Shown: positions 9,578 through 64,000, counted from the first letter of the stretch. The stretch is DNA of 64,000 nucleotides from Candidatus Wallbacteria bacterium (GCA_028687545.1 JAQTZZ010000010.1:50118-114117), one strand, 5' to 3'. Program-made: numbers and translations. The notes: generated by a model from the sequence alone, not told the origin.

Positions 9578-12217
9578 ATGAAGTCCGGTTTGCTAAATCT
9601 CAGCAGAAACGAAATTGTCGATATGCTGGCTGAAAAATCCCGCACAGGATGCGTCTGCGTCGCTGGCCTTTCCGGATCAGGCAAAACCTGGCTGGCTAAT
9701 GCACTGGCCGCTGAGATTCAGAAAAGAGGGAGAAATGCCCTGCAGATCGACTGCAGACGGGCCTGGACCACATCGGATGTTTACAGCGCTTTATCTGAAT
9801 CCCTGCTGCAGCTCACCTGTGACAACAGTGTTCAGGCTTTTTCCAGTGATCCCGGAAAGTTCCTCGGATTCATCTCACGAAAAAATATTACCCTGATCAT
9901 CGATAACTTCCATTTTGCGGAGAATCCAGAAACGATTGCTTTACTTGAAGAAGCGGCTTCTGGAAGAAACGGGATCGTGGTTTTCTCCAGAGAAAGGCCG
10001 AAAATGGACCTGGCAACCAAGGGTGAAGTCTTCACCTGCGTGTTACCGGGTTTAACTGAGCATGAAACAGGAGTGATGTTCGATTCCCTGTTCGAAGTCC
10101 AGGGCCAGGAGACGCCGGGTTATGAGGCGAAACAGGCAGTCTTCCGTTTGACTCAGGGTCACCCCTTTTCGATCAGGGTGATCTGCGCATTGCTTGGCCG
10201 GGGTAACCTGACACTGTCAGACCTCAAAAAAGGTGAAAATGAAACCCTGCTGGGCAATTACCTGGAATGGCCTGCCTGGAATGCCCAGTCTGATGATTTC
10301 AGGCATGTATTGAAACTGATCAGCATCATGCGCACTCAAGTCGACAGGGAAATTATCCGGGACATCGCCGGAGCGGACGCCGCAATAGTGCTGGAAAAGC
10401 TCCGGATTTCCTGCCTCTCAGAAATCGACCTGTACGGCAGGATCTCGCTGCCGCTGATCCTGAAGAATTTCATCAGGGGGAAGATTCCGGAGACCGAGCT
10501 GTTGGAGTTGCATAAAAAAACTGCAGTTCTGCTGCTTTGCAGATTCGGTTTCGAACCTGCCTACCTGGAAGAGATTTTCTACCATTTTTCCAGTGCAGGA
10601 GAATGGCATGCTGCTATCGACGCCCTGACCGGCTTTGGTGAGGAGAACCTTTTTCTACAGGGCACATGCAGTGGTCTCATCCCTCTTATCAGAAGTGGGG
10701 CTTGGGAAGATAACTACAAAAAGAAGGAGTTGAAGTTAGTGTTGATAGACCAGTTGATCCTCATGGAGAGATTCCAGGAAGCTCAGGAGGAAATCGAGGG
10801 GATCGGCGGGTTTTATGGTAAATTCTTTGCTGCAGGAATTGAGTACTTCAAGTGGAACAACGAATCTGCGCTTACCCAATACAGCAAACTTCTCAGCCAG
10901 ACCAGAGATCAAAAACAGAGATTTCTGGTGCTCAATAGAATTGCCTTATGTCATATTTTTATTGGCAATTTCGAGAAAGGCCGGGAGTTTCTTATAGAAT
11001 TATCAAAGATGCAGGAATTCGCTGCCAATCCGCTGGCTGCCATCAGGTTTTACATTTCCAGCACAAAGTTTTCTGAATACTGCGGGAAATACGATGATCA
11101 ACTCACTGCAATTGAAAAAACACTCGACCTGATGGAGGAAAACGGAATAAAAACCGGGCTAGGTATTATCCTGTATGTAAAAAGTTATTGTCTTGCGATG
11201 CTGGGCAGGAATGAGGAATCGGCCCGGGTGGCAGGGGAAACATTGAAGATTGCCGAGAAGCATGGTGATACTGTGCTTCTAGCGTTAGCATATGATCTGC
11301 ATGCATTACTCACTCGCTATGGCAGTGATTGGCGAAAGTCCATCGAGTACCGGCTCAAATGCATAGAATTATGCAGATGCTCAAATAACACTGTTCACAT
11401 AGCATCGCATCAGGTCGAAATCGGCACTGCCTATCTGAGACTTGGAGAAATAGAAACTGCTGAGCACTATTTCCAATTAGTCCTGGAAACTATCGACAGT
11501 ATCGAAGACATTGCGCTGAAAATCATAGCAATCAATTCCTATTGCGAGTTGCTGATCGCCACAGGCCGTTTCAGGGAAGCTCTGGAGCAGCTGCAGTCAG
11601 TCGAAAAGCAATTCCAGGGTAAATGTCCGCCACTTTGTACGAGCTTCAATTTTCTGATGGGAACATCCCTCGAAAAGCTTGGCGAAGCTGAAAAGGCCGG
11701 TCACTATTTCAGCCTCCACAGAATGGATCTGGATTCCATTCCCTCAGAAACCAGGAAACTATTCGAAAAGGAGGATGCCTGGCTGATTGCCAAGCTGCAG
11801 GAACCGAAGAAGATCAGGATCCTCCGCCGGGATACCGCTCCCGGATATATCAGCACAGAAGAAGTGGATTCCATACGCAGCCAGGCCGGGACTTTCGAAT
11901 TTTTTGCGGATTTTATGGGTTCATACGTAATTGTGGATGGAAGAAATATCGAAATCTTCAAGAAAAGGGTCATGGCGAGGATGTTGCAGGAACTGGTTTC
12001 AATCCCAGGGACCGAATTCAGCGCCGAACAACTTTATCCGAAGCTCTGGAACAGGAAATTCGAGCCTGAATCCGATGCAGGCACATTCCGCGCCGCTGTC
12101 TCCCGCCTGCGGAAAACTCTGGATCCGGACCATTCGCTCCGCTTCATCCTGAGCACTAAAGACTCCAGCGACTGCTGTTTCAACCCTGCAGTGAACTATT
12201 GCATACTGCTTCCCTGA
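9578..12217 (+). CDS. Signal-transduction P-loop NTPase (AAA_16/STAND-like) with TPR-like repeats and a C-terminal OmpR-type winged-helix domain
   Basis: Walker A GLSGSGKTW and Walker B LIIDNFH at the N-terminus. Helical repeat region in the middle. The C-terminus (FRAAVSRLRKTLDPD) resembles the trans_reg_C recognition helix. Paralog of 52302-55478. Confidence 0.6.
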   Translation: MKSGLLNLSRNEIVDMLAEKSRTGCVCVAGLSGSGKTWLANALAAEIQKRGRNALQIDCRRAWTTSDVYSALSESLLQLTCDNSVQAFSSDPGKFLGFISRKNITLIIDNFHFAENPETIALLEEAASGRNGIVVFSRERPKMDLATKGEVFTCVLPGLTEHETGVMFDSLFEVQGQETPGYEAKQAVFRLTQGHPFSIRVICALLGRGNLTLSDLKKGENETLLGNYLEWPAWNAQSDDFRHVLKLISIMRTQVDREIIRDIAGADAAIVLEKLRISCLSEIDLYGRISLPLILKNFIRGKIPETELLELHKKTAVLLLCRFGFEPAYLEEIFYHFSSAGEWHAAIDALTGFGEENLFLQGTCSGLIPLIRSGAWEDNYKKKELKLVLIDQLILMERFQEAQEEIEGIGGFYGKFFAAGIEYFKWNNESALTQYSKLLSQTRDQKQRFLVLNRIALCHIFIGNFEKGREFLIELSKMQEFAANPLAAIRFYISSTKFSEYCGKYDDQLTAIEKTLDLMEENGIKTGLGIILYVKSYCLAMLGRNEESARVAGETLKIAEKHGDTVLLALAYDLHALLTRYGSDWRKSIEYRLKCIELCRCSNNTVHIASHQVEIGTAYLRLGEIETAEHYFQLVLETIDSIEDIALKIIAINSYCELLIATGRFREALEQLQSVEKQFQGKCPPLCTSFNFLMGTSLEKLGEAEKAGHYFSLHRMDLDSIPSETRKLFEKEDAWLIAKLQEPKKIRILRRDTAPGYISTEEVDSIRSQAGTFEFFADFMGSYVIVDGRNIEIFKKRVMARMLQELVSIPGTEFSAEQLYPKLWNRKFEPESDAGTFRAAVSRLRKTLDPDHSLRFILSTKDSSDCCFNPAVNYCILLP

Positions 12218-18817: not shown

Positions 18818-19090
18818 ATGAATAATCACAAAGCCGACATGAATGACGGGATCGTGATCTGCAAAGCAGTGCCTGAGGATGCTGAGATTCTTACTTCTTT
18901 CAGGATCGGAATGCTGGAGAAAAAATTTGTAGTCATCCTGAAAGAGAAAAAGACCGGCACTCTGCAAAGGTCGCTTCTGGAAGCACATATCGAACATCTC
19001 AAAAATCTGCATCGATAAAATCTGCTTTTCCTTTGCGGGCCATTGAAAGACAGTGAATCAGCCTTATTGATCATCAGAGCGAAAAAGATG
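18818..19090 (+). pseudogene. Internally deleted copy of the GNAT-YciI gene
   Basis: MNNHKADMNDGIVICKAVPEDAEILTSFRIGML joins directly to KFVVILKEKKTGTLQRSLLEAHIEHLKNL with a stop. A frame-shifted YciI tail follows (NLLFLCGPLKDSESALLIIRAKKMKDVES). Confidence 0.6.
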
Positions 19091-35651: not shown

Positions 35652-35966
35652 TCAACCTGGGGAAGTTCCGGCTCTTTTTCTCAGGATGGTCAAACGTTCG
35701 TTCAGGGATTTCTGGAATTCCTCATCAGACAGCGAAGGATCTCGCAATTTCAAAAAGGTCTCGCAGGGCAGCTGTGAACACAGACCGCAATGTTCCAGGA
35801 GCCTTTCATTCGTGCAGCAATAATAGATCGGGCATCTTGAATTCTCCACATATGAACTCCAATAAGGCTTGCCTTCAGTCTGCCTGCACCCGGCGCAATC
35901 TTTCCTGAAATGCGAACAGCCTCCACAGGTATAGCCGCATGGAGGCGCGGTATTTACGTCAAACAT
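35652..35966 (-). CDS. DUF3795-like cysteine-rich protein, paralog B
   Basis: About 75% identical to 16926-17231. Confidence 0.55.
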   Translation of the reverse strand: MFDVNTAPPCGYTCGGCSHFRKDCAGCRQTEGKPYWSSYVENSRCPIYYCCTNERLLEHCGLCSQLPCETFLKLRDPSLSDEEFQKSLNERLTILRKRAGTSPG

Positions 35967-49042: not shown

Positions 49043-49128
49043 GATTCCTCCTCAAATGATGGACGCCTCCATTTTACACCTGAACGAACCTTTCAGTCAC
49101 TAGTGATCGGATAATTACAGCGTGCGCT

Positions 49129-52301: not shown

Positions 52302-55300
52302 TCAGCGATGCTGCTTTTTCGATTCAAACACTTTGCAGTCGTCGATCAGTTCATAGGCATTCTGATAACGCTTGGCAGCATCCTTTTCAATCGCCTTCAT
52401 CACTATCCGGTCAAGTTTCTGAGACACCTCAGGCACAATCCCGGATGGCGGGGGAGGTGAGGTGTTGAAAATCTTGTACAAGGCCTGCTCGGGGTTATTT
52501 CCCTTGAAAGGTAAGGTGCCTGTCAGGAATTCGTAAAGCGTCACTCCCAGCGCGTAAATGTCCGTGCCTTCGACAATGTCGCCACCCCTGAGTTGTTCGG
52601 GGGGCATGTAGTAAAGAGTGCCGAACACCTCGCCGGTTCCGGTCATGGATGCTACATCCAGAACCTTGGACAGGCCGAAATCCATGATCTTGGCGAGACG
52701 ATTCTGGTGCAGCATGATGTTGTCAGGCTTGATGTCGCGGTGGATGATGTTGTGGCTGTGGGCATAGGCAAGGGCTTCGGCCACCTGGAGGGCGATGCGC
52801 GCCACATGCTGCGGCTGAAGCCTGCCGAGGCGGTCCAGGATTTTCCTGAAGCTCTCGCCTTCCACGTATTCCATCACGATGTATGGTATCTCCCCTTCGA
52901 CGACCTCGAAGATCCTGACGATTCCAGGATGATCGAGCCTCTGGGCGGCCAGCCCGTCCCTTTTGATGAAGCGGCGGATGAATTTCAGATTGTCGCGGTA
53001 TTTTTCCGCAAGCACCTTGATGGCGACTGTCCGGTCGCGCTTGATGTCCAGTGCCTTGAAAACCACACCCATGCCGCCCATGCCGATCTTCTGGAAATCT
53101 TTGAAATTTCCAGCCAGGCCATCGATTATCAGGCCGGGGTCCGCGGAATCCGCGAACAATTCATAGGCAAGAGCCTGCTTCGCCTTGAGAGCCGGTGGCC
53201 CAATCTTTCCCAGTTCGCGCAGTTTGACCGTCAGCCAGGAATCATCCTCTTCGGTCAGCTTCCTGGTTTCTGCAGACATGGAATCCAGGTCGATCCGGTA
53301 CTGCTTGAAATAATCGCGGGATTTAGCCGATTCCCCCAGTTTTTCAAGCGCTGTTCCCATCAGAAAATTAAAGCTGGTAAACAGGACCGGGCATTGACCG
53401 TGGAAAAGCTTTCCGATTGCCTGAAGCCTTTCCAGGGCTTCCACGAATCTGCTGGAGAAAAGCAGCAATTCACAATAGGAATAATTCACTCTGACCTTGG
53501 GAGCGAAGTCGTCCACCTGGTCGATCGTTTCCAGCGCTTTTGCAAAATAATCTTCAGCAACATCTTCTTCCCCCAGCCTGAGATACGCCCTACCGATATC
53601 GGCATGCGTCCAGGCCGTAAAAACCGCGGAATTGGAACGCTGGAAAAAATCCCTGCTCTTCAGGCGGTATTCGATGGATTTCCTAAAATCTCCCTGATGG
53701 TAGCTGAGAGATCCCAGCAGGCCGCAGGCAGTCCCGGAAAGAGCGGAATCGCCTTGCTCCTCTGCCAGTTTCAACACCTCAACGGCGACCTGTCCAGCTT
53801 CTTCCATTCTGGCAAGTTTCAGAAGGAAATGCCCTTTCAGGGACAAAATATCTCCCAGAAAAGTTTTCATCCCGTTTTCCCTGGCCAGCCCGACTACCTG
53901 CTCGATCTCTGAGAGCGCTTTCTCAACGTTTCCCAGGTAGTCGAATAAAAACGAGTTGCATCTGAAATACAGGGCAGTTGCTTTCAAATCGGATGCGAAT
54001 CCCTGCATTTTAGGTATTTCTTCAAGAATTTCCCGGCTTTTTTCGAGATCCCCTAGCTGCAGATGGCACATGCCGATTTTGAACAGCAGCAGAAATTTCA
54101 AGGTCGGATCTGCTTCCTTCAGCAGGAGAGAGAATGAATCCAGCGCGGCTTCGATGCCGCCCTTGTAATATTCAATGCAGGCGGCAAAAAATGCCCTGTG
54201 TACACCCTCGATGGCTTCGATTTCCACCTGGGCTTCCTCAAATCTATTCTGCAGGATCAGCTGGTCGATCAGGGCCAGTTTCAAATCACGCTCACGGTAC
54301 CCGGCTGATTCGAGCTCGTTCCGGATGATGAACACAAGGTCGCAGCTTACAGACGGAAGGAACAGGTTCATATCTCCGAACTTAATCAGGGCATCAATGG
54401 CGGCATGCCTTTGTCGCGAAAAGAGAAAATGATTATAAATCTCTTTTACATACAGCGGCTCTGAACCGAAACGCTTCTGCAGCAGCAATGCTGCTCTGTC
54501 GTGCAGCTCCTCCATCTCTGCATCCGGTATCTTTTCCCTGATGAAACTCTTGAGGATCATGGGCAGGGAAATCTTGCCGAAGGAATCGTACTCGGCCAGG
54601 CACGAGTCTCTCAGCCTGTCCAGCATGGTTCCGTCATTGTCCGCTGCAATATCCCGCACGATTTCGCTGCCCACAGGGATGCGGAAAACACTGAGTTGCT
54701 TCAGGATCTGCCTGAAATCCTTAGTCTGGGATTTCCAGAAAGAACCCTCGAAAAAATGATTGATGATTTCATCGAGTTTTTTATCTCCGCCCCACTTGGT
54801 CAGGGTCATCTCTCCTGATAACAAAAGAGCGCAGATCGCCTTGACTGAAAAGGGATGTCCCTGGGACAGTTTGCAGATCTTTCTTTTCGTTTCCGCATCC
54901 GGGAGATCACGATTCTGAAACTCGAAGATCGAGTCAACCATTTCCAAAGTTTCGGATTCGATCAGCGGGGGCAGGAAGTATGTGAAAATGTCCGCTGAAA
55001 CTTCAATCGAGGTTTTCGGTCTGGTTCTGGAAGTGACGATCACCCTTCCCTCTGCAGAGGAAGAAGCCTTTTCAAGCAGGTCAAGCGTTTTTCTGCTTTC
55101 GCTCATGTGAAAATCGTCGATGATCAGCTTGATGTCCCTTTTGGACAGGAAATCAAGAAACTTTTCCGGATCATGGCAGAAGATCGGTACTTCCTTGTCG
55201 CCGGCATAAAGGCGCAGGGTGTCTGAGAGTGAACTGTAGAAATCCTCTTCAGTCCAGGCGTCCCTGCAGCGCAGGATGATTGAGTTCCACCCGTTCTTCT

Positions 55301-55478
55301 GCAGGCTGGCGAGCAATTCTCCTGTCAGCCATGTTTTGCCTGACCCGGGCAGGCCTACTATGCAGACGCAGCCGGCCTGGGAAAATTTGCGGACCAGGAG
55401 TTCTATGATGTCTTTTCTGGAAATTTTTGGACTCTCGTTCATTACCTGAATTTTATCTCTCAACGTTGAAAATTTCAA
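52302..55478 (-). CDS. P-loop NTPase (AAA_16/STAND-like)-TPR-Ser/Thr protein kinase, 1058 aa
   Basis: N-terminus: Walker A GLPGSGKTW and Walker B LIIDDFH. Middle: TPR-like helical repeats. C-terminus (about 52305-53200): a complete Hanks kinase with GMGGMGVV, VAIK, HRDIKPDN, DFGLSK and GTLYYMPPE. Confidence 0.85.
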   Translation of the reverse strand: MKFSTLRDKIQVMNESPKISRKDIIELLVRKFSQAGCVCIVGLPGSGKTWLTGELLASLQKNGWNSIILRCRDAWTEEDFYSSLSDTLRLYAGDKEVPIFCHDPEKFLDFLSKRDIKLIIDDFHMSESRKTLDLLEKASSSAEGRVIVTSRTRPKTSIEVSADIFTYFLPPLIESETLEMVDSIFEFQNRDLPDAETKRKICKLSQGHPFSVKAICALLLSGEMTLTKWGGDKKLDEIINHFFEGSFWKSQTKDFRQILKQLSVFRIPVGSEIVRDIAADNDGTMLDRLRDSCLAEYDSFGKISLPMILKSFIREKIPDAEMEELHDRAALLLQKRFGSEPLYVKEIYNHFLFSRQRHAAIDALIKFGDMNLFLPSVSCDLVFIIRNELESAGYRERDLKLALIDQLILQNRFEEAQVEIEAIEGVHRAFFAACIEYYKGGIEAALDSFSLLLKEADPTLKFLLLFKIGMCHLQLGDLEKSREILEEIPKMQGFASDLKATALYFRCNSFLFDYLGNVEKALSEIEQVVGLARENGMKTFLGDILSLKGHFLLKLARMEEAGQVAVEVLKLAEEQGDSALSGTACGLLGSLSYHQGDFRKSIEYRLKSRDFFQRSNSAVFTAWTHADIGRAYLRLGEEDVAEDYFAKALETIDQVDDFAPKVRVNYSYCELLLFSSRFVEALERLQAIGKLFHGQCPVLFTSFNFLMGTALEKLGESAKSRDYFKQYRIDLDSMSAETRKLTEEDDSWLTVKLRELGKIGPPALKAKQALAYELFADSADPGLIIDGLAGNFKDFQKIGMGGMGVVFKALDIKRDRTVAIKVLAEKYRDNLKFIRRFIKRDGLAAQRLDHPGIVRIFEVVEGEIPYIVMEYVEGESFRKILDRLGRLQPQHVARIALQVAEALAYAHSHNIIHRDIKPDNIMLHQNRLAKIMDFGLSKVLDVASMTGTGEVFGTLYYMPPEQLRGGDIVEGTDIYALGVTLYEFLTGTLPFKGNNPEQALYKIFNTSPPPPSGIVPEVSQKLDRIVMKAIEKDAAKRYQNAYELIDDCKVFESKKQHR

Positions 55479-55563
55479 ATGAGTTTAGAACCTGTATCTG
55501 AAAACAGGATAGACTTGGAGATGGGGTTTTAAATGCCGCCTGAGAAGAAAAAGAAAAGTGAAT

Positions 55564-58500
55564 TCAGATCCTGTTCTTCTCGTAAATTTTGTTCAATGCA
55601 AGTTTAGCCTGTTCCCTGACTTCGCGGCTTTCGTCCTTCAGGGCTTCCTTGAGCGGCGGAATGGCCCGCACATCGGAGATCCTGCCGAGGGATTTGCAGA
55701 CAGCCCCGCGCACGCTCTTGCTGCGGTCAGAGAGCAGTTCGATCAGAGAGTCGCAGGATCCCACACTCTTGATGTTTCCCAGCACCAGCGCTGAATGTTC
55801 CCTCATGAATCGGTTGCGGTCATACAGCATCTTAATCAGGATCTTTTCCAGCTGATTGTTCTGAATCATGGACAGGATCTCTGTGGAATTGTCCCGCAGC
55901 ACCTGGTCGTCGTTCTTCAGGCATTTCACCAGCAGCGGGATAGCCTGTTCGCCAAACTGGCTGATTGCCTCGAAAATCTTGTTCTTGATCCACATGTTCT
56001 CCAGGCTGAGGTTCTTGACCAGCGGTGTAATCGCACCTGTATCTCCGATTTTGCCGAGTGCTTCCACGGCTTCTTCCCGCACGCGGTTGTCCGGATCGTC
56101 CAGCAGCTTGTACAGACTTTCCAGAGCTCTGCGGTCCTTCTTCTCACCCAGGATTCTGGCGGCTTTCGCCCGTACCAGATCGCTCTGGTCATTGATGCTC
56201 TTCAGAATGATCGGCACCACTCTGTGGTCTTCAATATTCCCGAGGGATTCAATGATCCTGATCCTGATCGTTTCGCTCTTGTCACCCAGAGATTCCGTGA
56301 GCGGTTCCACTGCTCTCGGATCCCGGAGCGCGCCAAGGGTCTCGATGATCGTCATCCGGATCTTTTCGTTGGAGTCGCGCAGGACTTTGACCAGTGGTTC
56401 CACTGCCAGCGCGGAACCGATCTTGCCAAGGGCTTCCACAGCGACCTTGCGCAACTGCTCGTTGGAGTCCTTGAGGCTTCTGACCAATGGTTCAATCGCA
56501 CGCACATCTTTGAATTCGCCCAGCGTGTAAATAATGCTTTCCTTGGCATAATCATCCGCCACGGTAAGCTCCTCAAGTAAGATACGCACAATTTTCTGCT
56601 CCCCGATTTTCACCAGGGCATTGGCTATTTCATAGTAATCAACGCCATCGGTTTTATGCTTCAAAAGCCCTATCAGCACTTCGATTGCCTTGGAATTGCC
56701 GAGTTCCCCGAGAGCAAACACGGCCCAGTATTTAGCGATTGACTCAGATTCGGACAGCACTTCGATCAGCTGGTCCACCGCCTGCTCGTTACCGAATTTT
56801 CCGAGCAGTTCGGCCACATTTCTCTGCATGCCGTTCAATACTTCCCGGACAGTGCAGAAAATATTTTCGTCTTCAAGACCTCGCAGTTCTTCCAGATCTT
56901 TGGCGCGGATTGTATCTTTCAGGATCGAAACCAGCATCCCGGATACCCTGGAATCTTTTTCCCGGATCAGGCACTGGGCGATGGTGAAGCGCAGCCATGA
57001 ATATGATTCCCTCATCACCAGGATCATCTTGCGGCTTTCCATCACTGCCCTGTCGATTGAGAGCAGGGCATCCACGGTAAGAGCCTTGATTTTCTTGTCA
57101 TTGCTGTCCAGAAGCCTGACCAGCGGCATGATTGTCCTGATGTCTCCAGTTCTGGAGAACACACGGATTACTTTGGACTTGATGTCACTTTTTGAGCCGG
57201 GAAGAAATTCCACCAGGGCTTCAGTGGCCTGTTCCTTGAATTTGACCAGCGCATCTACAGCTTCTTCGCTCACCACAACATTCTCATCTGACAGTTTTCG
57301 AATGAGCCTGGAGATAGCCATCTCGTTCTTGATCACTCCCAGCGCAATTACAGACTGTTTTCTGACTTCATCGTTGGCATCGTCGATCACTTCGATCAAA
57401 GCTTCGGTTGCCATGCGGTTACCGATCTTGCCAAGAGCGATCACAGACTGTTCGCGCAGCCGTTCATCCTTGTCATCCAGATGCTGGATCACTGTTTCAG
57501 TGGCTTCCTCATCGCCGATCTCGCCAAGCGCGATGATGGCTTTCTGCTTCAATTCAGGTGCGATATTCTCGCTCAACAGTTTGATCAGGGGAGCCACCGC
57601 GCGTGGTGTTTTCAAAAGTCCCAGGGACTCGCAGGCTGCAAGGCGCACTTCATCCTGTACGTCAGCCAGAGCTTCGATCAGGGATTCGCAGGAAAACGGA
57701 TCACCGATTTTTCCGAGTGCTACGGCCGCTTCCTTGCGGATCCTTTCATTGAGATCCTTCAATAATATGGAAATCGAGTTTACTATCTCTCGACGGCGGA
57801 TTTCACCAAGCGCCCAGACAGCTTTGAGTTTGACATCATCGTTCTGGTCTGAGAGCTGACTAACCAGCACATCCAGAGATTCTTCGGCCCGCAGGAGGCC
57901 GAGAGCTTCGCAGACGGCACTTCTGACCTCGTCGACCGGGTCGTCAGCCAGCTTATTAAGGGCCGGGATAGCCTTACGGCTTTTAATTTTCCCCAGGGCT
58001 TTAGCAGCCACAAAGCGCAAGTCGCCGCTTTTTTCTTTCAGGAGCGGAATCAATCCATCCACAGCACGCTCATCACCGATCTTTCCTAGTGATTCGGCAG
58101 CTACATACACCAGATCATCATTTTCATTATTCAGAACCAGCAGCAGGTGTTCCACAGCCTGGACTGATCCAATCTTTCCCAGAGCCTTGATCAGCAGATA
58201 GCAGATATCCTCATTTCCTTCCTGCACCAGCATTTTAAGCAGGGGGTCGGTAGCGAGGCCTGAACCGATATCGCCAAGCGCTTCAATCGCTGCTTCCCGC
58301 AGATCCAGGTTGTCCTGATTTAAAATATCCAGAATAGGTTTAACACCGTTTTCGGCTTTATGTTCACCGAGTTCCTGTATGATGGCATATTTCTCGTCGT
58401 CATTCGATTCCTGCTGCAACCTGAAGAGCAGATTTTCAAGGTGTTTCTGTTCATCTTCCTCTTCCGGAACCTGGATTTCTTCTTCCTGGGACTCTTCTCC

Positions 58501-59856
58501 TTCACGTTCCCGTTCTTCCTCTGCCTGCATCTTTTTCCTGACGCGCTCAATCACGGGAACTGCTTCTTTACCCTTGGCCGGACCGCCGGGTACGCTCTCC
58601 ACGATTACAGGTTCAGCTTCATCAGAGCTGATCTCAGGTTCGATCTGCGATTTAATTTCAGGTATTTCCGGTTCCGGTGTCAGTTCGGGCAGGATTCTGG
58701 AAAGATCTGACTCTTCCCTGGAAACTGCAGGCGGTGGAATCTTTGTTTTCTTGGAAGGAGTGACTGTTGATTGAGGTACTTCAGTCTTCAAGTCAGCATT
58801 TTCCGGTTTTTTTACTTTGGGTTCTTCAGGGGAAGCGAAAAGCGTTTTGACTGCGCTCGCGTCGAAAAGTGGTTCTTCTTCAGATTCAGCTGCCGGTTCA
58901 TCCAGGCTGAATTTCTCGGTTTCAAATGAGAACTCTCCTTTTTCTTTATCTTCGCCGCTGAGATCGAAATCCATCTCTTCGGCTTTCTTCCCCTCCTCAG
59001 CTTTAGGTGGCAGAAGATCGCTGAAATCGTCATCCGAGCCTTCATCGTCAAGACTGAATTCTGCGTCATCACCCATTTTAATGTCTAAATCGCCTTCATC
59101 TTTGCTGGTTGATGGTTTCGCAGCTTTAGCTTCCGGCTGTGGTTTACTGTCCAGAGAAAAATCAAATCCGTTATCTGCGCTATCTTCTTTTTTCTTTGGC
59201 AGAAGCTCATCGTATTTTTCCTCGTCACCACCCGCAAAAAGTTCATCGAATGATTTCTTGGAATCAGTGATTTGGGCAGAGGGCGGCTTCTGGACGCTGC
59301 TTTCCAGCAAGTCCAGCTTAATCTCGCCGGAAGAACTCATGTCATCCTTCAGATCTCCGGATTCGGATTTCACGTCAATTGATGGCTGGGAATCCGAAAG
59401 ATCCAGTTCCTTGAAAAAATCATCTTCAGCGGAATCTGTGGTTTCCTTCTTGGGTTCAGATGCCTTTTTGGAAGGTACTTCTTTGGAAGGGACATCATTC
59501 AGAAAATTGCTGTCTTCATTGAGAAAATTGGACTGAATGGAAATTTCCCCGGACTCCTTGCCTTTCCTGGCGTCTTTTCCGGAATCGTTTTCCTCGACCA
59601 GCCCCAGTTCACGGAAAATATCTTCATCATCCTTGTTCGAGCTTTTACTGTTTTTATCCAGATTCAGGTCCAGATCGAAGAGGTCGTCCTCCTCGCGGAT
59701 CATGGCATCGATACCATCGCCCTTTTCACTTTTCACCTTGGCTTTCAGGCCGCCGATGTCCAGATTGGCTTTTCCGCCTTCATCAAGCCCGGCTCCGCAT
59801 TCGACGCAAAACTTGCTGTTATCGACATTATCAGCTCCGCAATGGGGGCATTTCAT
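55564..59856 (-). CDS. Giant zinc-ribbon / acidic disordered / HEAT-repeat (PBS-lyase-type) protein, 1430 aa
   Basis: MKCPHCGADNVDNSKFCVECG zinc ribbon. About 450 aa rich in D, E, K and S. Then more than 25 HEAT/E-Z repeats (...RLAACESLGLLKTPRAVAPLIKLL...). The start lies 26 nt inside the ptsI 3' end. Confidence 0.7.
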   Translation of the reverse strand: MKCPHCGADNVDNSKFCVECGAGLDEGGKANLDIGGLKAKVKSEKGDGIDAMIREEDDLFDLDLNLDKNSKSSNKDDEDIFRELGLVEENDSGKDARKGKESGEISIQSNFLNEDSNFLNDVPSKEVPSKKASEPKKETTDSAEDDFFKELDLSDSQPSIDVKSESGDLKDDMSSSGEIKLDLLESSVQKPPSAQITDSKKSFDELFAGGDEEKYDELLPKKKEDSADNGFDFSLDSKPQPEAKAAKPSTSKDEGDLDIKMGDDAEFSLDDEGSDDDFSDLLPPKAEEGKKAEEMDFDLSGEDKEKGEFSFETEKFSLDEPAAESEEEPLFDASAVKTLFASPEEPKVKKPENADLKTEVPQSTVTPSKKTKIPPPAVSREESDLSRILPELTPEPEIPEIKSQIEPEISSDEAEPVIVESVPGGPAKGKEAVPVIERVRKKMQAEEEREREGEESQEEEIQVPEEEDEQKHLENLLFRLQQESNDDEKYAIIQELGEHKAENGVKPILDILNQDNLDLREAAIEALGDIGSGLATDPLLKMLVQEGNEDICYLLIKALGKIGSVQAVEHLLLVLNNENDDLVYVAAESLGKIGDERAVDGLIPLLKEKSGDLRFVAAKALGKIKSRKAIPALNKLADDPVDEVRSAVCEALGLLRAEESLDVLVSQLSDQNDDVKLKAVWALGEIRRREIVNSISILLKDLNERIRKEAAVALGKIGDPFSCESLIEALADVQDEVRLAACESLGLLKTPRAVAPLIKLLSENIAPELKQKAIIALGEIGDEEATETVIQHLDDKDERLREQSVIALGKIGNRMATEALIEVIDDANDEVRKQSVIALGVIKNEMAISRLIRKLSDENVVVSEEAVDALVKFKEQATEALVEFLPGSKSDIKSKVIRVFSRTGDIRTIMPLVRLLDSNDKKIKALTVDALLSIDRAVMESRKMILVMRESYSWLRFTIAQCLIREKDSRVSGMLVSILKDTIRAKDLEELRGLEDENIFCTVREVLNGMQRNVAELLGKFGNEQAVDQLIEVLSESESIAKYWAVFALGELGNSKAIEVLIGLLKHKTDGVDYYEIANALVKIGEQKIVRILLEELTVADDYAKESIIYTLGEFKDVRAIEPLVRSLKDSNEQLRKVAVEALGKIGSALAVEPLVKVLRDSNEKIRMTIIETLGALRDPRAVEPLTESLGDKSETIRIRIIESLGNIEDHRVVPIILKSINDQSDLVRAKAARILGEKKDRRALESLYKLLDDPDNRVREEAVEALGKIGDTGAITPLVKNLSLENMWIKNKIFEAISQFGEQAIPLLVKCLKNDDQVLRDNSTEILSMIQNNQLEKILIKMLYDRNRFMREHSALVLGNIKSVGSCDSLIELLSDRSKSVRGAVCKSLGRISDVRAIPPLKEALKDESREVREQAKLALNKIYEKNRI

Positions 59857-61600
59857 CAGAGACCTCCTGCGCTTTTATGCAATTCCTGTGAAAATTCTCC
59901 AAAGTGGACTTGATTTCTTCGGATTTGCATAACTTCATAATTGTATCGGCAAGTTCCCGTGCGTCGTCCAGATGCAATTTATTGATTATCTTCTTTATGC
60001 GTGGAATTAAGGGCGGACTGAGGGACATCTTGTCGATGCCGAAACCCAACAGAACAGGCGTAATCAGTGGGTTTGAGGCCATCTCGCCGCAAATGGAGGT
60101 CCAGAGTCCGTTTTGATGGACTCTATCGATGATTTTTTTCAAGCTGCGAAAAATCGCCGGATGAAAAATATTGTAAGATTCGGAAATATAAGGGTTATTT
60201 CTGTCAACTGCAAGGATAAATTGCAGAAGGTCATTGGTCCCGATACTGAAAAAATCCACTTCGCGGGAAAAATCGTCGATCAGATAGGTAGATGCAGGGG
60301 TTTCCAGTAAAACACCAAGCTTCACATTTTTCGAGTATGGGTATTTTTCTTTTTTCAGGTCATCCTTAACACCTTTAATAATCTCTTTGATTTTATGAAT
60401 TTCTTCTATCGAAGAGATCATGGGGAACAGTATGTGCAGTTTCCCGTGGGGACTGGATTTGTACAGGGCTTTCAACTGGGTGATGAACAGGGTTATGTGC
60501 TGCAGGCTGATCCTGATCCCGCGCAATCCAAGGAAAGGGTTTTCTTCCTTGATGTTCTTGAATCGATAGAACTGCTTGTCACCGCCCAGATCAAAGGATC
60601 TGATGATTACCGGCTTGTCAGGGAAGGCTTTCAGGACTCTGGAATAGCTTTTCACCTGTTCTTCTTCGGAAGGCAGACGTTCGTATTCAGCGAACAGGTA
60701 CTCCGTGCGATACAGTCCGATGCTGTTGGCACCGTACTCAGCCGCCAGCATGGCTTCTTCTTCCCTCTCAATATTAGCGTCGATCATAAATACATGCCCG
60801 TCAAGGGTTCTGGCATCCGACCTGGCACTGTCTTCTTTTTCCTTGAATTTATTGATGTAGTAATCTTCCTGCTGACGCTTGTACCGGTTTAAAGTAGGCT
60901 CGTCAAAACTCAGGATCACTTTTCCTTCAATTCCGTCCATAATCATGAGCAGATCATCAGTGATTTTGGAAGTGATGTCCGTCAATCCTACGATCATGGG
61001 AATTTCCAAGGTCTTGGCGAAGATCGCCATGTGTGAGGTGCCGCCTGATGTTTCAACACAGATTCCTGCAATCTTGGATTTATCGAAATTCATCAGGTCG
61101 CTGATCCCAATCTGGCTTCCAACCAGTACTATCTCATCATCAGACTTCTGCAAGCTCTTGGAGTCGCGGCCATGGAGAATTCCAATCACGCGTTCGCCGA
61201 CTTCACGGATATCGTCGGCCCTCTCTCTGAAATATTCTTCCTTCATCTTCTCGAAGAGGCCGATGAATTTGTTCATTACCCGAAGATAGCTGTTTTCAAC
61301 GTCGACTTTCTCGGATTTCACAATTTCGATGATTTCACCCATAAAGAGTGGATCATTCAGGATCATGATCTGAGCCTGGAAGATTTCCGAGGCTTCCTTG
61401 GAAATTTCCCGGTCAGCCCTCTGTTTAAGCTGGGCTAATTCGGAAGTGGCCTTTTTAATGGCACTGTCAAGCCGGGTGAGTTCCTTGTCAATTTCTCCAT
61501 CTGAGATGCTCCGAGGCTTAAGATTTTTACAGAGAAACTTCTTTATGATAAAGGCTTTCCCGATTCCCAGTCCTTCTGAAGCAACAATCCCTTTCAGCAT
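59831..61600 (-). CDS. ptsI: Phosphoenolpyruvate-protein phosphotransferase (PTS Enzyme I)
   Basis: GGTSHMAIFAKTLEIPMIVG PEP-utilising His motif. 589 aa with the full EI architecture. TAATG overlap with ptsH. Confidence 0.9.
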   Translation of the reverse strand: MLKGIVASEGLGIGKAFIIKKFLCKNLKPRSISDGEIDKELTRLDSAIKKATSELAQLKQRADREISKEASEIFQAQIMILNDPLFMGEIIEIVKSEKVDVENSYLRVMNKFIGLFEKMKEEYFRERADDIREVGERVIGILHGRDSKSLQKSDDEIVLVGSQIGISDLMNFDKSKIAGICVETSGGTSHMAIFAKTLEIPMIVGLTDITSKITDDLLMIMDGIEGKVILSFDEPTLNRYKRQQEDYYINKFKEKEDSARSDARTLDGHVFMIDANIEREEEAMLAAEYGANSIGLYRTEYLFAEYERLPSEEEQVKSYSRVLKAFPDKPVIIRSFDLGGDKQFYRFKNIKEENPFLGLRGIRISLQHITLFITQLKALYKSSPHGKLHILFPMISSIEEIHKIKEIIKGVKDDLKKEKYPYSKNVKLGVLLETPASTYLIDDFSREVDFFSIGTNDLLQFILAVDRNNPYISESYNIFHPAIFRSLKKIIDRVHQNGLWTSICGEMASNPLITPVLLGFGIDKMSLSPPLIPRIKKIINKLHLDDARELADTIMKLCKSEEIKSTLENFHRNCIKAQEVSDEMPPLRS

Positions 61601-61866
61601 TAATCCTCGTCAAACATGCTTTCAAATAAATTATGAATTGCTTTAGCGGCTTCAAGTTCGTCAGAGCCGGAAGCGCTGATTGATATGGTACTACCTTTCT
61701 CGGCAGCCAACAACATGATGTCGATTATGCTTTTGGCATTAACCACAGTACCGTTCTTCTGCAGAAAAACCTCAGATTTGAATTTCTGGGAGGTTTCGGC
61801 GATCAGCGCAGCAGGCCTCGCATGCAGCCCGGCTTTGTTTCTGACTATTGTCTCCAGTTTATGCAT
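61600..61866 (-). CDS. ptsH: HPr phosphocarrier protein
   Basis: GLHARPA His15 motif. 88 aa. Confidence 0.9.
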   Translation of the reverse strand: MHKLETIVRNKAGLHARPAALIAETSQKFKSEVFLQKNGTVVNAKSIIDIMLLAAEKGSTISISASGSDELEAAKAIHNLFESMFDED

Positions 61867-63766
61867 ATGGCGTTACCTTGAAAGTCATTTCAAAGGAACA
61901 TTCTTCTCCGGGTTTCAGGGAGATAGATTTAAAAAAGCTCACACTGCATCCCTGAAAAACCAGCTGGTACTGTTCCGGCAATCTGTCAATAACATAATCC
62001 GGTGCAGTCAGACATGTCAACACAGGATGACAGAAATCGATTTCAACTCCCAGCAGCCCGTCGAACACCTGCAGTTCTCCTGATGACTCGAAGCAGGATC
62101 TGTTTTCAAAACCGAATTCCCTGGTTTCTTCAGGAGTGCAGGTCCTGAAAAAACTGCCTGAATATCCCGGATGGGAAAGACCCAGGTCGAAGTCGATGCG
62201 CAGCAGGTTTTCGACCGCTGTGGCGCAAGTATTGGTGAGATGGTACCTGACGCAGATATTATTGTTGGAATCGCGAAGTGAAACTTCCTTACTAAGTTTC
62301 AACGCAACGCAATCCATCCCGAAATCGGTCTCGAAAAAAGCCCTGGCAACATTCTTGCCTGATCCATCCCGATAAAGAGTATGGAGAAGCTTGAGTCCAG
62401 TATCTCTGAAAGAATCACATTCTCTCAGAGCAAAAGATTCTCTGAGAAATGATGGAACCTGATTGAAGTTCAATTCAGAACTCAAGGTCTCTTCGTCAAG
62501 GGTTCCAAACATCTCATTCCGCCATTCCAGGATTTTCCGGTAGTTTTTCCTGCGATTCAGGAGATTGCACTTTTTCGGTTTGAAATCGAACTGAGTGATG
62601 GCACCAGTCTGCTTATCAAAACAGATCCCGAAAATATCGCTGTCAAATCTGATTTCATCAGTTCCGTTGATTCCGGTTTCAAGACTGAGTCCTGTTTTTG
62701 ACCGGCTGGGGACCATTTCATTCAACATCAAACTTTCCCTGAAAAAATTCTGCCTCAAGGCCGAATAATTAAGTCCTCCAAAAATTCCCGGCCAGAGGTA
62801 TCCGTAAAATTCAAGCGAAGAGAGAAGTTTTTCGGCCTTTTCCTGCTTCAAGATTGAATCATTTGAATCTTCAATTCTGGTCAGAAGCTGATACATGTTC
62901 CACATTTCAGGGAAGCTTTTCAGATAATCCAGAAAATCACTCTTGATCAGCATCTTTTTTTCAGCGCCAACATCGTCCATGAAAAAATAATAGTATGGGT
63001 AATTGTAAACCACGTCCAGCCAGAGAAGTTCTCCCAGATTCATTCCCGGTATTGTTGTCCGGGAAATGTTTTTGTTACAATCCGTCTCTGAAACACAGCG
63101 AGAATTGGAATTTGTGTCCTTTAATTCCTGCAGAAAGTCAAACAGCCAGTCGCTCCCGACACGATTGGTGAACAATTCAGCAGGTAAAGCCAGGAAAAGA
63201 GGGCTTTCGACCTGGCCCAGCTTTTTCAGGACTCCAGTACCTTCCAGAAAAAACTGCCTGGCTTTTCTCAAGTCAAAACCAATCACCTTGAGAGGATTTT
63301 CCGATAAGCCGGTTAGAGTGATCCCGTCTCTCCCTTCGTCCACGATAGCAACATTCCGAATTCCACAATCAGGCAACACATTTGAGAGGTAATCCGTCCA
63401 GAGCATTCTGGGAAGAAACATTGAGCTGGGCACGCAACCGAACTTCTTATGGCAGAAGGAGATGCTCTTTCTGATCTGTGATTCAGCTCTTTCTTTAGGG
63501 ATCAAACTATAATTAGGTTCATAAAATCCATTGATCAGGACTTCGATTTTCCCCTGTTTGATGTAAGGTATGAATTCCTGGAAAAAATCCTGGCGCTCCT
63601 GTTCGATCCATTCCAGGATGAATCCGCTGAAATAAAGATTGAGTTTCAGATTACCAAGTTTTGCGAGCAGCTCTTCCACGAACATGAAAAATCTGGCCTT
63701 TGTGCCCAGTTGAAGCTGGCCAAGCGGTTCGTTGAAATATAGAAGTAACAGGATCTCATTGGTCAA
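61859..63766 (-). CDS. GH57-like protein, divergent at the catalytic-site signature
   Basis: The N-terminus aligns to the GH57 HxHQPLGNF...VFEEAY signature but reads YFNEPLGQL...FVEEL (HQP to NEP). 8-nt overlap with ptsH. TTG start. Confidence 0.5.
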   Translation of the reverse strand: MTNEILLLLYFNEPLGQLQLGTKARFFMFVEELLAKLGNLKLNLYFSGFILEWIEQERQDFFQEFIPYIKQGKIEVLINGFYEPNYSLIPKERAESQIRKSISFCHKKFGCVPSSMFLPRMLWTDYLSNVLPDCGIRNVAIVDEGRDGITLTGLSENPLKVIGFDLRKARQFFLEGTGVLKKLGQVESPLFLALPAELFTNRVGSDWLFDFLQELKDTNSNSRCVSETDCNKNISRTTIPGMNLGELLWLDVVYNYPYYYFFMDDVGAEKKMLIKSDFLDYLKSFPEMWNMYQLLTRIEDSNDSILKQEKAEKLLSSLEFYGYLWPGIFGGLNYSALRQNFFRESLMLNEMVPSRSKTGLSLETGINGTDEIRFDSDIFGICFDKQTGAITQFDFKPKKCNLLNRRKNYRKILEWRNEMFGTLDEETLSSELNFNQVPSFLRESFALRECDSFRDTGLKLLHTLYRDGSGKNVARAFFETDFGMDCVALKLSKEVSLRDSNNNICVRYHLTNTCATAVENLLRIDFDLGLSHPGYSGSFFRTCTPEETREFGFENRSCFESSGELQVFDGLLGVEIDFCHPVLTCLTAPDYVIDRLPEQYQLVFQGCSVSFFKSISLKPGEECSFEMTFKVTPYA

Positions 63767-64000
63767 CGATTTTCTCCCGAAGCAGCAGATATGCTCCCAG
63801 CAGGCTGGATTTGTCGATCAGATTGCTTTTGACTATCACAGTCTTCTCAGCAAATAGCCTGAAACAATACTGAGAAAGCTTTCCAGTTACAACAGGCAAG
63901 AGGATCTCACCGCTGTGAAATAATCCACCTGCCAGAACTACTTTTACCGGACCGAAAATGTTGATCAGAGATCCGATTCCGGCAGCCAGAAAATCCGAAT
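63756..64000 (-). CDS. ROK-family sugar kinase (glucokinase-like), C-terminal part. The start lies beyond the window.
   Basis: ...AAGIGSLINIFGPVKVVLAGGLFHSGEILLPVV... is the ROK C-terminal signature. The stop overlaps the next gene's start by 11 nt. Confidence 0.6.
   Translation of the reverse strand, partial: SDFLAAGIGSLINIFGPVKVVLAGGLFHSGEILLPVVTGKLSQYCFRLFAEKTVIVKSNLIDKSSLLGAYLLLREKIVDQ

What the first reader, a model, noticed from the sequence alone, without database searches (positions are those of the whole stretch)
52302..63766. HPr-Enzyme I translationally coupled to a giant zinc-ribbon/HEAT protein and a NTPase-TPR-Ser/Thr kinase in one minus-strand gene string
Six genes are packed with overlapping junctions on the minus strand. 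The ROK kinase overlaps the GH57-like gene by 11 nt. The GH57-like gene overlaps ptsH by 8 nt. The ptsH and ptsI genes share TAATG. The 1430-aa zinc-ribbon/acidic/HEAT gene starts 26 nt inside ptsI. The 1058-aa P-loop NTPase-TPR-Hanks kinase gene follows 85 nt later. No Enzyme II is present, so HPr and EI here look regulatory rather than transport-related. A PTS phosphorelay joined to a STAND-like kinase and a huge HEAT scaffold is not a described arrangement that I know of. It could be a carbohydrate-status-gated signalling or stress-response module.
Basis: partly seen in the sequence, partly recalled or inferred. Interest (0 to 1): 0.72.

Follow-up and report, generated by a model that had tools for sequence, protein, structure and literature searches.

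The report
PTS genes coupled to HEAT scaffold
In an uncultured Wallbacteria genome the two general sugar-phosphotransferase proteins (HPr, Enzyme I) are followed, with overlapping start and stop codons, by a 1430-residue zinc-ribbon/acidic-tail/HEAT-repeat protein; the same three-gene arrangement recurs in distantly related uncultured bacteria, which points to an undescribed partner of this signalling system, whereas the neighbouring kinase is not a conserved part of it.

Summary
The window comes from a Candidatus Wallbacteria MAG.

The adjacency ptsH-ptsI followed by the zinc-ribbon/acidic-IDR/HEAT gene is conserved:
- Four further Wallbacteria-like lineages have it (EI 59-70% identical), with start/stop overlaps of 26, 26, 14 and 4 nt.
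- A high-GC lineage whose EI is only 35% identical has glmS-glmU-glmM-ptsH-ptsI-HEAT.
- One Riflebacteria locus has EIIA-Man, MalK, HPr, then HEAT.
- One Riflebacteria locus has the HEAT gene without any PTS gene nearby.

The flanking genes differ between lineages while the triad persists.

The NTPase-TPR-kinase gene is not conserved next to the HEAT gene. The same genome holds at least three paralogues of its sensor part, and the other two end in a winged helix instead of a kinase.

The GH57-like gene encodes a pseudoenzyme: the nucleophile Glu is replaced and region IV is deleted. A Firestonebacteria operon carries a canonical GH57 inside a complete mannose-type PTS, which suggests a possible ancestral state.

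The most likely reading is a non-catalytic scaffold that partners HPr/EI. This rests on synteny only. No paper in the searched library links HPr or ptsI with HEAT repeats.

The parts
63756..64000 (-). 3' end of a ROK-family sugar kinase gene (full 316-aa product seen in L010)
   Evidence: Translation. The full gene is seen in L010. NCBIfam ROK_glcA_fam scores 207 bits, below the 260 cut-off. The gene is conserved upstream of GH57-like/ptsH in L005 and L008.
61859..63766 (-). GH57-like gene encoding a probable pseudoenzyme (635 aa)
   Evidence: Pfam GH57 matches only residues 32-144. R120 aligns with the nucleophile Glu123 of T. litoralis 4-alpha-glucanotransferase 1K1W. HQP is changed to NEP and region IV (DDGEKFG) is deleted, in contrast to the canonical GH57 of L027. 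No NCBIfam hit.
61600..61866 (-). ptsH (HPr, 88 aa) with His15, Arg17 and Lys45-Ser46
   Evidence: Pfam PTS-HPr 94 bits. TIGR01003 100.5 bits, above its cut-off. Alignment A3.
59831..61600 (-). ptsI (Enzyme I, 589 aa) with the active-site His (GGTSH, His190) and Cys (CGEM, Cys504); no GAF domain
   Evidence: Three Pfam EI domains. TIGR01417 543.8 bits against a cut-off of 341.7. Motifs.
59863..59868 (-). Shine-Dalgarno AGGAGG for the HEAT gene, inside the ptsI coding sequence
   Evidence: Sequence. Equivalent sites occur in L008, L006 and L009 (AGGAGG or GGGAGG).
59782..59856 (-). N-terminal zinc ribbon (CxxC...CxxC, aa 1-25) of the 1430-aa protein
   Evidence: Pfam Zn_Ribbon_1, residues 2-24. 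Conserved in all family members that have an intact N-terminus.
58432..59781 (-). Acidic, probably disordered region (aa 26-475) with short recurrent motifs
   Evidence: Net charge -66 and 28% Asp+Glu. Motifs DEDIFRELGL, DDFFKELDL and [YF]x[DE]LLP[PK]. Length and sequence vary between lineages; this part is 31% identical to L009.
55564..58431 (-). HEAT-repeat solenoid (aa 476-1430), with a family-conserved non-repeat centre (around MRESYSWLRF, Y952)
   Evidence: Pfam HEAT_2 at 2e-144 with 12 stretches. AF2 model is all-alpha, mean pLDDT 73.6, with a low-confidence centre. Foldseek matches are alphaRep, CAND1 and karyopherins. Colinear across the full length with L009 (68%), L029 (33%) and L030 (32%).
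52302..55478 (-). STAND-like NTPase, TPR and C-terminal Hanks kinase gene (probable start ATG 55442); a lineage-specific neighbour, not a conserved part
   Evidence: Pfam. Walker A GLPGSGKT, Walker B LIIDD, and VAIK, HRD, DFG and PPE motifs. No terminator-like hairpin in the 121-nt gap. Absent downstream of the HEAT gene in L009, L029 and L030.
9578..12217 (+). Paralogue of the kinase gene's sensor part (879 aa, STAND-TPR with a C-terminal winged helix)
   Evidence: 46% identity over about 800 aa to the kinase protein. 44% to P0002, whose C-terminus carries Trans_reg_C.

Best explanation
The conserved unit is ptsH-ptsI plus the gene for a large non-catalytic scaffold. The scaffold has an N-terminal zinc ribbon, a 450-750-residue acidic disordered region and a solenoid of about 950 residues of HEAT repeats. 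In Wallbacteria this gene is translated from an SD site inside ptsI, so it is made together with Enzyme I.

I infer that the scaffold is a dedicated partner of the general PTS proteins. It would bind HPr and/or EI, probably depending on their phosphorylation state, which reflects the PEP:pyruvate ratio. It would then either sequester them or bring them to client proteins held on the solenoid.

The variable upstream genes suggest that the clients lie in carbohydrate and cell-envelope precursor metabolism. These genes are ROK kinase with a dead GH57-like glucan-binding protein, glmS-glmU-glmM, or EIIA-Man with MalK.

The STAND-TPR-kinase gene downstream is a lineage-specific neighbour. It may be co-transcribed here but does not belong to the module.

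Shown: gene order, overlaps, domain content and conservation of the triad. Inferred: physical interaction, dependence on phosphorylation, and the clients.
For: Conserved adjacency:
- L008: ROK, GH57-like, HPr, EI, then the zinc-ribbon gene with a 26-nt overlap.
- L005: same order, with an ATGA overlap at the contig end.
- L006/L007: divergent rpmH, then HPr, EI and the zinc-ribbon/acidic gene with a 14-nt overlap, and no ROK or GH57.
- L009: EI followed by a 1470-aa homologue with a 26-nt overlap.
- L011 (Riflebacteria): EIIA-Man, MalK, HPr, then the zinc-ribbon/IDR/HEAT gene.
- L030/L031: glmS, glmU, glmM, HPr, EI, HEAT. Their EI is only 35% identical to the window's, no closer than EI of other phyla.

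The family is real and colinear over all 960 HEAT residues: E = 1e-154 for L029 and 1e-138 for L030, with further members.

An SD site precedes the HEAT start in every lineage.

EI and HPr keep their catalytic and regulatory residues.

No His or Cys is invariant in the HEAT region across 9 members, so a phospho-acceptor role there is unlikely.

The solenoid resembles peptide- and protein-binding scaffolds: alphaRep, CAND1, karyopherins.

LD-like acidic motifs recur in the IDR far above shuffle expectation in the two clades that have ptsI adjacency.
Against: - All evidence is synteny and domain content. There are no interaction or expression data.
- One Riflebacteria locus (L029) has the HEAT-family gene with no HPr or EI within 8 kb.
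- In L030 the EI-to-HEAT gap is about 100 nt, so tight coupling is specific to Wallbacteria.
- The lineages may be related candidate phyla, so part of the conservation could be inherited gene order.
- Only 8 loci could be examined. The IDR motifs are not shared by the Riflebacteria clade.
- HEAT_2 proteins also occur in unrelated signalling clusters such as L013.
Confidence: 0.5

Rival explanations
1. Co-expression without a functional link. The HEAT protein is a general scaffold, for example cytoskeletal, envelope or chaperone-like. It merely rides on the strongly expressed ptsHI transcript, and the shared order in several lineages is inherited gene order.
For: - L029 has the gene away from any PTS gene.
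- The repeats are generic HEAT_2 type, found in tens of thousands of proteins: 85,508 hits at E<=0.001.
- HEAT proteins sit in other signalling clusters (L013).
- The clades with the triad may be related candidate phyla.
Against: - The triad persists while both flanks change: ROK/GH57-like, rpmH, glmSUM or EIIA-Man/MalK upstream, and kinase, DUF433 or RseC downstream.
- It spans lineages whose EI is 35% identical and whose GC content ranges from 29% to 64%.
- Overlapping stop and start codons with an internal SD are maintained in four further Wallbacteria-like lineages.
Confidence: 0.3
2. One reading: a six-gene signalling module in which HPr~P gates the STAND-TPR-kinase, with the HEAT protein as scaffold.
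For: - The kinase gene lies on the same strand, with only an 85-121-nt gap and no terminator-like hairpin.
- The kinase has all catalytic motifs.
- HEAT-kinase fusions (P0123) and zinc-ribbon-kinase fusions (L014, L020) exist.
Against: - No kinase lies downstream of the HEAT gene in L009, L029 or L030.
- The sensor part has at least three paralogues in this genome, and the other two end in a winged helix.
- The kinase domain appears to have replaced that winged helix just after a retained YELFAD..IIDG stretch.
- A promoter-like site lies at the start of the kinase gene, though at chance frequency.
Confidence: 0.1
3. The scaffold is itself the terminal phospho-acceptor or an EII substitute. HPr~P would phosphorylate it, most plausibly in the zinc-ribbon or IDR part.
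For: - No EII gene lies in the window.
- The gene occupies the position after ptsI where PTS substrates such as crr lie in enterobacteria (own knowledge).
Against: - No invariant His or Cys in the HEAT region.
- The only conserved Cys residues are the four zinc ligands.
- The IDR is poorly conserved.
- No similarity to any EII family in Pfam.
Confidence: 0.05

Closest known systems
Incomplete, permease-less regulatory PTS (e.g. Brucella melitensis EI-Ntr/NPr/EIIA-Ntr/EIIA-Man, PMC2937029; Salmonella EIIA-Ntr and amino-sugar homeostasis, PMC5024086)
   Same: - General PTS proteins are encoded without a transporter nearby and sit next to non-transport genes.
- The Riflebacteria locus has an orphan EIIA-Man next to HPr.
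- The L030 locus joins ptsHI to glmS, glmU and glmM, echoing the PTS-Ntr link to amino-sugar homeostasis named in the title of PMC5024086.
   Different: - EI here is the standard sugar-type EI, with no GAF domain and a pass on TIGR01417.
- No EIIA-Ntr is present.
- The partner is a 1400-1700-aa HEAT scaffold, which is not known in any described PTS.
- Whether the genome truly lacks EII is unknown.
TmaR, the E. coli protein that sequesters Enzyme I in polar condensates (bioRxiv 10.1101/2020.08.01.232603; PMC11937232)
   Same: A non-enzymatic protein whose job is to bind and store or localise EI. The long acidic disordered region with repeated short motifs is the kind of sequence that could support multivalent assemblies.
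   Different: - No homology: the Pfam scan lists only zinc-ribbon and HEAT/ARM-type families.
- From my own knowledge, TmaR is a small protein and is not encoded next to ptsI.
- The resemblance is a hypothesis about mechanism only.
HEAT_2 / PBS-lyase-type HEAT proteins (CpcE/F, NblB; the natural family behind artificial alphaRep proteins) and large eukaryotic solenoids (CAND1, karyopherin-beta)
   Same: The same repeat type, 35-39% identical to alphaRep chains, and an elongated all-alpha solenoid as in CAND1 and importins.
   Different: - Scores are below every NCBIfam lyase cut-off (NblB 249.8 against 300; CpcE 226.7 against 330).
- The protein is five to seven times longer than the lyase subunits.
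- It has a zinc ribbon and an acidic IDR.
- No bilin or phycobilisome genes were found in the window.
Mannose-family PTS operon with embedded GH57 in Firestonebacteria (L027)
   Same: GH57, HPr and EI lie in the same order, and EI is 40% identical.
   Different: The Firestonebacteria operon has EIIA, EIIB, EIIC and EIID, a catalytically intact GH57, and no HEAT gene. The Wallbacteria version has none of the EII genes, a dead GH57-like protein and an added scaffold.
MalT/AfsR-type STAND regulators and kinase-STAND fusions such as M. tuberculosis PknK (own knowledge)
   Same: A P-loop NTPase of NB-ARC/AAA_16 type followed by a MalT-like TPR sensor and joined to an output domain.
   Different: - The domain order here is NTPase, TPR, then a C-terminal kinase.
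- The closest relatives of the sensor part are two paralogues in the same genome that carry a winged helix instead.
- In the word-limited search, other proteins matched only over roughly a quarter of the query (15-30% coverage), consistent with the kinase domain alone.

Membership tests
PTS Enzyme I (sugar-type) | Three domains (PEP-utilisers_N, mobile His domain, PEP-binding C domain) with the active-site His and the conserved Cys of the C domain | tested here: met
   Pfam, three domains. TIGR01417 543.8 bits against 341.7. GGTSH His190 and CGEM Cys504.
PTS HPr | HPr fold with His15 (and Ser46 for HprK-type regulation) | tested here: met
   PF00381 94 bits. TIGR01003 100.5 against 47.9. H15, R17, K45 and S46 are conserved in alignment A3.
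Complete sugar-transporting PTS | EIIA, EIIB and EIIC (and EIID) encoded with or near ptsHI | tested here: not met
   No EII family appears in any ORF of the 64-kb window. tblastn with Man-family EII proteins finds nothing.
PTS-Ntr (EI-Ntr/NPr/EIIA-Ntr) | EI with an N-terminal GAF domain; EIIA-Ntr (PTS_EIIA_2) partner | tested here: not met
   EI starts directly with PEP-utilisers_N and has no GAF. It scores lower on the PtsP model NF008283 (401 against a cut-off of 583). No PTS_EIIA_2 gene in the window.
Glycoside hydrolase family 57 (active enzyme) | Catalytic nucleophile Glu in region III (WLxERxW) and acid/base Asp in region IV (DDGEKFG) | tested here: not met
   R120 aligns with Glu123 of 1K1W. 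Q and H occupy that position in L005 and L008. Region IV is deleted in all three, whereas L027 keeps both residues. The residue roles are from my own knowledge of the T. litoralis enzyme.
STAND NTPase (NB-ARC / MalT-like) | P-loop NTPase with Walker A and B followed by a helical or TPR sensor region | tested here: met
   NB-ARC 29.7 bits against 23.5. Matches to AAA_16, AAA_22 and TPR_MalT are below their own cut-offs. GLPGSGKT and LIIDD motifs.
Hanks-type Ser/Thr protein kinase | GxGxxG loop, VAIK Lys, HRD catalytic loop, DFG, APE-like motif | tested here: met
   Pkinase 179.8 bits. GMGGMGVV, VAIK, HRDIK, DFG and PPE motifs.
Phycobiliprotein lyase / NblB HEAT proteins | Score above the equivalog cut-offs; size of 200-420 aa; phycobilisome context | tested here: not met
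   All NCBIfam scores are below their cut-offs and arise from many repeated stretches. The protein is 1430 aa. No phycobilisome genes in the window.
Zinc-ribbon/acidic-IDR/HEAT family defined here (window, L009, P0252, P0263, P0265, P0273, P0274, P0283, P0290) | N-terminal CxxC...CxxC ribbon, long acidic low-complexity region, colinear HEAT region of about 950 aa with the central KESYAWLRF-type segment | tested here: met
   Colinear single-stretch matches. Sequences. Alignment A5 with invariant Y490, Y952 and W1044. tblastn over all 960 residues.
Known anti-phage defence systems (PADLOC) | Specific match to a defence protein model beyond shared generic domains | tested here: inconclusive
   The only hits are to the kinase domain (PD-T4-6, mad6) and to HEAT repeats (HEAT-ARM_XIII). 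These reflect generic domains.

The most novel reading that the evidence does not exclude
The zinc-ribbon/IDR/HEAT proteins are a previously unrecognised output branch of the PTS in several uncultured phyla. In this reading a karyopherin/CAND1-like solenoid, made together with EI, reads the phosphorylation state of HPr or EI. It then organises or sequesters enzymes of glucan and amino-sugar metabolism, possibly through multivalent acidic motifs that form assemblies.
Probability: 0.3. Interest if true: 0.8.

Novelty: new variant of a known kind. Interest (0 to 1): 0.6.

Why it matters
HPr and Enzyme I are among the best-studied bacterial regulators. Their known partners are enzymes, transporters, transcription factors and, in E. 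coli, the small protein TmaR.

A conserved, co-translated HEAT solenoid of 1400-1700 residues with a long acidic tail would be a new kind of PTS partner. It would also give a function to a class of large bacterial repeat proteins that are currently annotated only as 'HEAT repeat domain-containing'.

The comparison also suggests how a transport operon could be repurposed. A mannose-type PTS operon with a working GH57 exists in Firestonebacteria. The Wallbacteria version has no EII genes, an inactivated GH57-like protein and an added scaffold.

The hypothesis can be tested directly with recombinant proteins, even though the organisms are uncultured.

Tried and rejected
1. A genome-contig scan with EI found only distant EI genes because the exact peptide patterns were too specific. 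This used the only scan of that collection.
2. A metagenome-contig scan with the HEAT alignment chose poor patterns (MKCPHCG, MWI[KR]NKI). It returned generic zinc-ribbon or HEAT proteins and no further orthologues.
3. Exact look-ups of the window's HEAT protein, the kinase (P0001) and P0002 found no contigs on record.
4. The word-indexed homologue search with the HEAT protein returned only 5 hits. The exhaustive search of representatives was needed to find the family.
5. The idea that P0002 is the kinase gene's orthologue in another genome was rejected. Its accession lies in the same numeric range as the window's HEAT protein (MDD2714334.1 and MDD2715643.1) and both are named Candidatus Wallbacteria MAG proteins, so I take it to be a paralogue in the same MAG. 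This is inferred from the accession numbers, not verified.
6. A defence-system reading was considered and rejected, because the PADLOC hits are to generic domains only.
7. A phospho-acceptor role for the solenoid was rejected, because no His or Cys is invariant there.
8. A terminator or structured RNA in the HEAT-kinase gap was not found (z = +0.8). There are no Rfam matches in the window.
9. The taxon of GCA_053940405.1 (L030) could not be obtained.

Full report
**Observation**

The minus strand of 52302-64000 carries six consecutive ORFs exactly as described:
- the 3' end of a ROK kinase gene, cut by the window end;
- a GH57-like gene (61859-63766);
- ptsH (61600-61866);
- ptsI (59831-61600);
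- a 1430-aa gene (55564-59856);
- a 1058-aa gene (52302-55478).

The junctions read from the sequence are overlaps of 11, 8, 1 (TAATG) and 26 nt, followed by a gap of 85 nt.

Pfam confirms all domain calls:
- HPr and the three EI domains.
- Zn_Ribbon_1 at residues 2-24, plus HEAT_2 at E = 2e-144 in 12 stretches.
- NB-ARC/AAA_16/AAA_22, then TPR_MalT/TPR_12, then Pkinase.

EI and HPr pass NCBI's family cut-offs. They keep the active-site His and Cys of EI, and His15, Arg17 and Lys45-Ser46 of HPr.

A canonical AGGAGG lies inside ptsI, 6 nt before the ATG of the HEAT gene.

Two refinements apply:
- The TTG start of the GH57-like gene is supported, because its first 27 residues align with region I of homologues.
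- The kinase more probably starts at ATG 55442. That is NCBI's 1046-aa call, and an AGG lies 4-6 nt upstream. It makes the gap 121 nt.

**Source**

The kinase, HEAT and EI proteins are identical to proteins of a Candidatus Wallbacteria MAG on a 117,816-bp contig. A separate Logan assembly (L010) carries the same locus with the HEAT ORF uninterrupted up to its contig end.

**Is the PTS-to-HEAT adjacency conserved?**

Yes. The closest EI proteins, at 59-70% identity, come from four other lineages, and in each the zinc-ribbon gene follows ptsI:
- L008: ROK, GH57-like, HPr, EI, then a gene starting MKCPHCGADN... that overlaps ptsI by 26 nt.
- L005: the same order, with ATGA stop/start overlap and MKCPHCGTEN at the contig end.
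- L006/L007: HPr and EI directly after a divergent rpmH-rnpA-yidC cluster, without ROK or GH57. The zinc-ribbon/acidic gene follows, overlapping by 14 nt.
- L009 (Wallbacteria GCA_028711905.1): EI followed, with a 26-nt overlap, by a 1470-aa homologue. It is 68% identical in the HEAT part and 31% in the acidic part.

The exhaustive search of 1.84 billion representatives found further full-length, colinear relatives. They share the N-terminal zinc ribbon, an acidic low-complexity region of 450-750 residues, and a HEAT region of about 950 residues with a conserved non-repeat centre.

The contexts of three more distant members could be read:
- A Riflebacteria contig (L011) has EIIA-Man, a MalK-like ATPase and HPr, then the zinc-ribbon/IDR/HEAT gene 34 nt later.
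- A high-GC (64%) genome, GCA_053940405.1 (L030/L031), has glmS, glmU, glmM, ptsH, ptsI and then the HEAT-family gene. Its EI is only 35% identical to the window's, which is no closer than EI of Bacillota or Verrucomicrobia.
- Another Riflebacteria genome (L029) has the gene with no HPr or EI within 8 kb.

In total, 7 of 8 loci with a visible upstream side have HPr, usually with EI, immediately upstream. Both flanks differ between lineages.

**The kinase**

Downstream of the HEAT gene the relatives carry DUF433 (L009), RseC (L030) or UDG (L029), never a kinase.

The kinase protein's first 780 residues are 46% identical to another gene in the same window (9578-12217, 879 aa). They are 57% identical to P0002. 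Both of those proteins end in an OmpR-type winged helix.

P0002's accession lies in the same numeric range as the window's HEAT protein and both are named as Candidatus Wallbacteria MAG proteins, so I take it to be a paralogue in the same genome. This is inferred from the accession numbers.

The kinase version still keeps the first residues of that winged helix (YELFAD..IIDG) before the kinase domain begins. This suggests an output-domain replacement within a locally expanded sensor family.

The 121-nt gap has no terminator-like structure, so read-through transcription is possible. Nothing beyond position links the kinase to the PTS genes.

**The GH57-like protein**

Pfam matches only residues 32-144. 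In the alignment to the T. litoralis 4-alpha-glucanotransferase (1K1W), R120 takes the place of the nucleophile Glu123.

Compared with a canonical GH57 from Firestonebacteria, the Wallbacteria-type proteins show three changes:
- they lack the HQP motif;
- they have R, Q or H at the nucleophile position;
- they have lost region IV, which holds the acid/base Asp.

They are only 26-27% identical between lineages whose EI is 60% identical. This is a pseudoenzyme, possibly a glucan-binding protein.

The Firestonebacteria operon (L027) reads EIIA-2, EIIA-Man, EIIB, GH57, EIIC, EIID, HPr, EI, PGI. That is a complete mannose-type PTS with a working GH57 in the same relative position. It is a plausible picture of the ancestral state.

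**What the HEAT protein looks like**

Residues 1-25 form a four-Cys ribbon.

Residues 26-475 carry a net charge of -66. They contain short recurrent motifs: DEDIFRELGL, DDFFKELDL, and twice [YF]x[DE]LLP[PK].

The acidic amphipathic motif [DE]x[FLIMV][FL]x[DE][LI] recurs above shuffle expectation in every full-length Wallbacteria-like and L030-like member tested. In the four L030-like proteins, 0 of 500 shuffles reached the observed count. It recurs as LDDFLxEL in that clade, but not in the Riflebacteria clade.

The AF2 model of residues 476-1430 is an all-alpha solenoid:
- mean pLDDT is 73.6;
- it has two confident repeat blocks;
- a low-confidence centre holds the family-conserved segment around Y952.

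Foldseek finds alphaRep proteins (35-39% identity), CAND1, karyopherins and SF3B1.

Across nine family members, no His or Cys is invariant in the HEAT region.

**Interpretation**

The conserved unit is HPr, usually EI, and the scaffold. The scaffold is non-catalytic and has the form of a protein- or peptide-binding solenoid with a multivalent acidic tail.

I therefore favour a dedicated partner of the general PTS proteins. It would bind HPr and/or EI and either store them or bring them to clients. This is the job that the unrelated small protein TmaR does for EI in E. coli condensates (PMC11937232).

The variable neighbours are ROK with the GH57-like protein, glmS-glmU-glmM, or EIIA-Man with MalK. 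They point to carbohydrate and amino-sugar metabolism. The regulatory PTS-Ntr branch has been tied to amino-sugar homeostasis in Salmonella (PMC5024086). Permease-less regulatory PTS sets are known in Brucella (PMC2937029).

Everything beyond gene order and domain content is inference. I put this reading at about 0.5.

**What could not be settled**

- Whether the organism has EII genes or HprK elsewhere. No EII gene was found in the window, small ORFs included. No HprK family appeared in the Pfam scans either, but not every ORF under 150 aa was scanned.
- The taxon of L030.
- Transcription.

**Novelty**

Full-text searches found no paper linking HPr or ptsI with HEAT repeats in bacteria. They also found nothing on PTS in Wallbacteria or Riflebacteria.

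The parts are all known kinds. The conserved combination is not described. I rate it a new variant of a known kind, with interest 0.6.

Noticed in passing
window 61859-63766 (-); L005 7876-9738; L008 1090-2928: The GH57-like proteins of the Wallbacteria-type operons lack the catalytic nucleophile (R, Q or H in place of Glu) and the whole of region IV. They diverge much faster than the neighbouring EI and HPr: 26-27% identity against 60-70%.
   Followed up: yes
window 9578-12217 (+) and 52302-55478 (-); P0002: The genome holds at least three paralogues of one STAND-TPR sensor. Two end in an OmpR-type winged helix and one in a Hanks kinase. The junction lies just after a shared YE[LIF]FAD...DG stretch, which suggests an output-domain swap.
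   Followed up: partly
L027 2543-9770: A Firestonebacteria operon places a canonical GH57 glucanotransferase-like gene between EIIB and EIIC of a complete mannose-family PTS, followed by HPr, EI and a PGI-like gene.
   Followed up: partly
L014 2124-3056; L020 1421-2389: Metagenome contigs encode the same type of N-terminal zinc ribbon fused directly to a Hanks kinase domain (44% and 32% identical to the window's kinase). P0123 is a HEAT-kinase fusion.
   Followed up: no
L013 7777-14638: A 635-aa HEAT_2 protein sits in what looks, from reading the ORF translations, like a partner-switching and chemotaxis cluster (SpoIIE-type phosphatase, RsbW-like kinase, STAS, CheY-like receivers, CheR). No domain search was run on these ORFs.
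   Followed up: no
window 18202-18540 (-): A ParE-family toxin gene lies in an otherwise gene-poor 1.2-kb stretch. Small ORFs lie immediately upstream (18455-18691, 18794-19074), but none was tested as a candidate antitoxin.
   Followed up: no
window 44207-45991 (+) and 42420-43820 (+): Two adjacent genes encode proteins with C-terminal SH3_3 domains. One product has a long Pro/Asn-rich region (PHPHPNPNPQPQPNPYPNPNP) and G/Y/N/Q-rich repeats. The other has an Amidase_2 domain.
   Followed up: no
window 7732-8574 and 37074-37913; 16926-17231 and 35652-35966; 13514-16221: Duplicated gene pairs occur within the window: two arginase-family genes, two DUF3795 genes, and a TldD/PmbA pair.
   Followed up: no
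window 3305-5680 (+): A 791-aa ankyrin-repeat protein lies next to a pentapeptide-repeat protein (2635-3270). Together with the HEAT protein, this gives the window an unusual density of eukaryote-like repeat proteins.
   Followed up: no
window 46115-52269: Two large convergent genes probably encode glycoside hydrolases. One is 975 aa with F5/8 type C domains. The other is 1046 aa with weak MGH1-like, GH2_N and rhamnosidase-like matches. The second ends 32 nt from the stop of the kinase gene.
   Followed up: no
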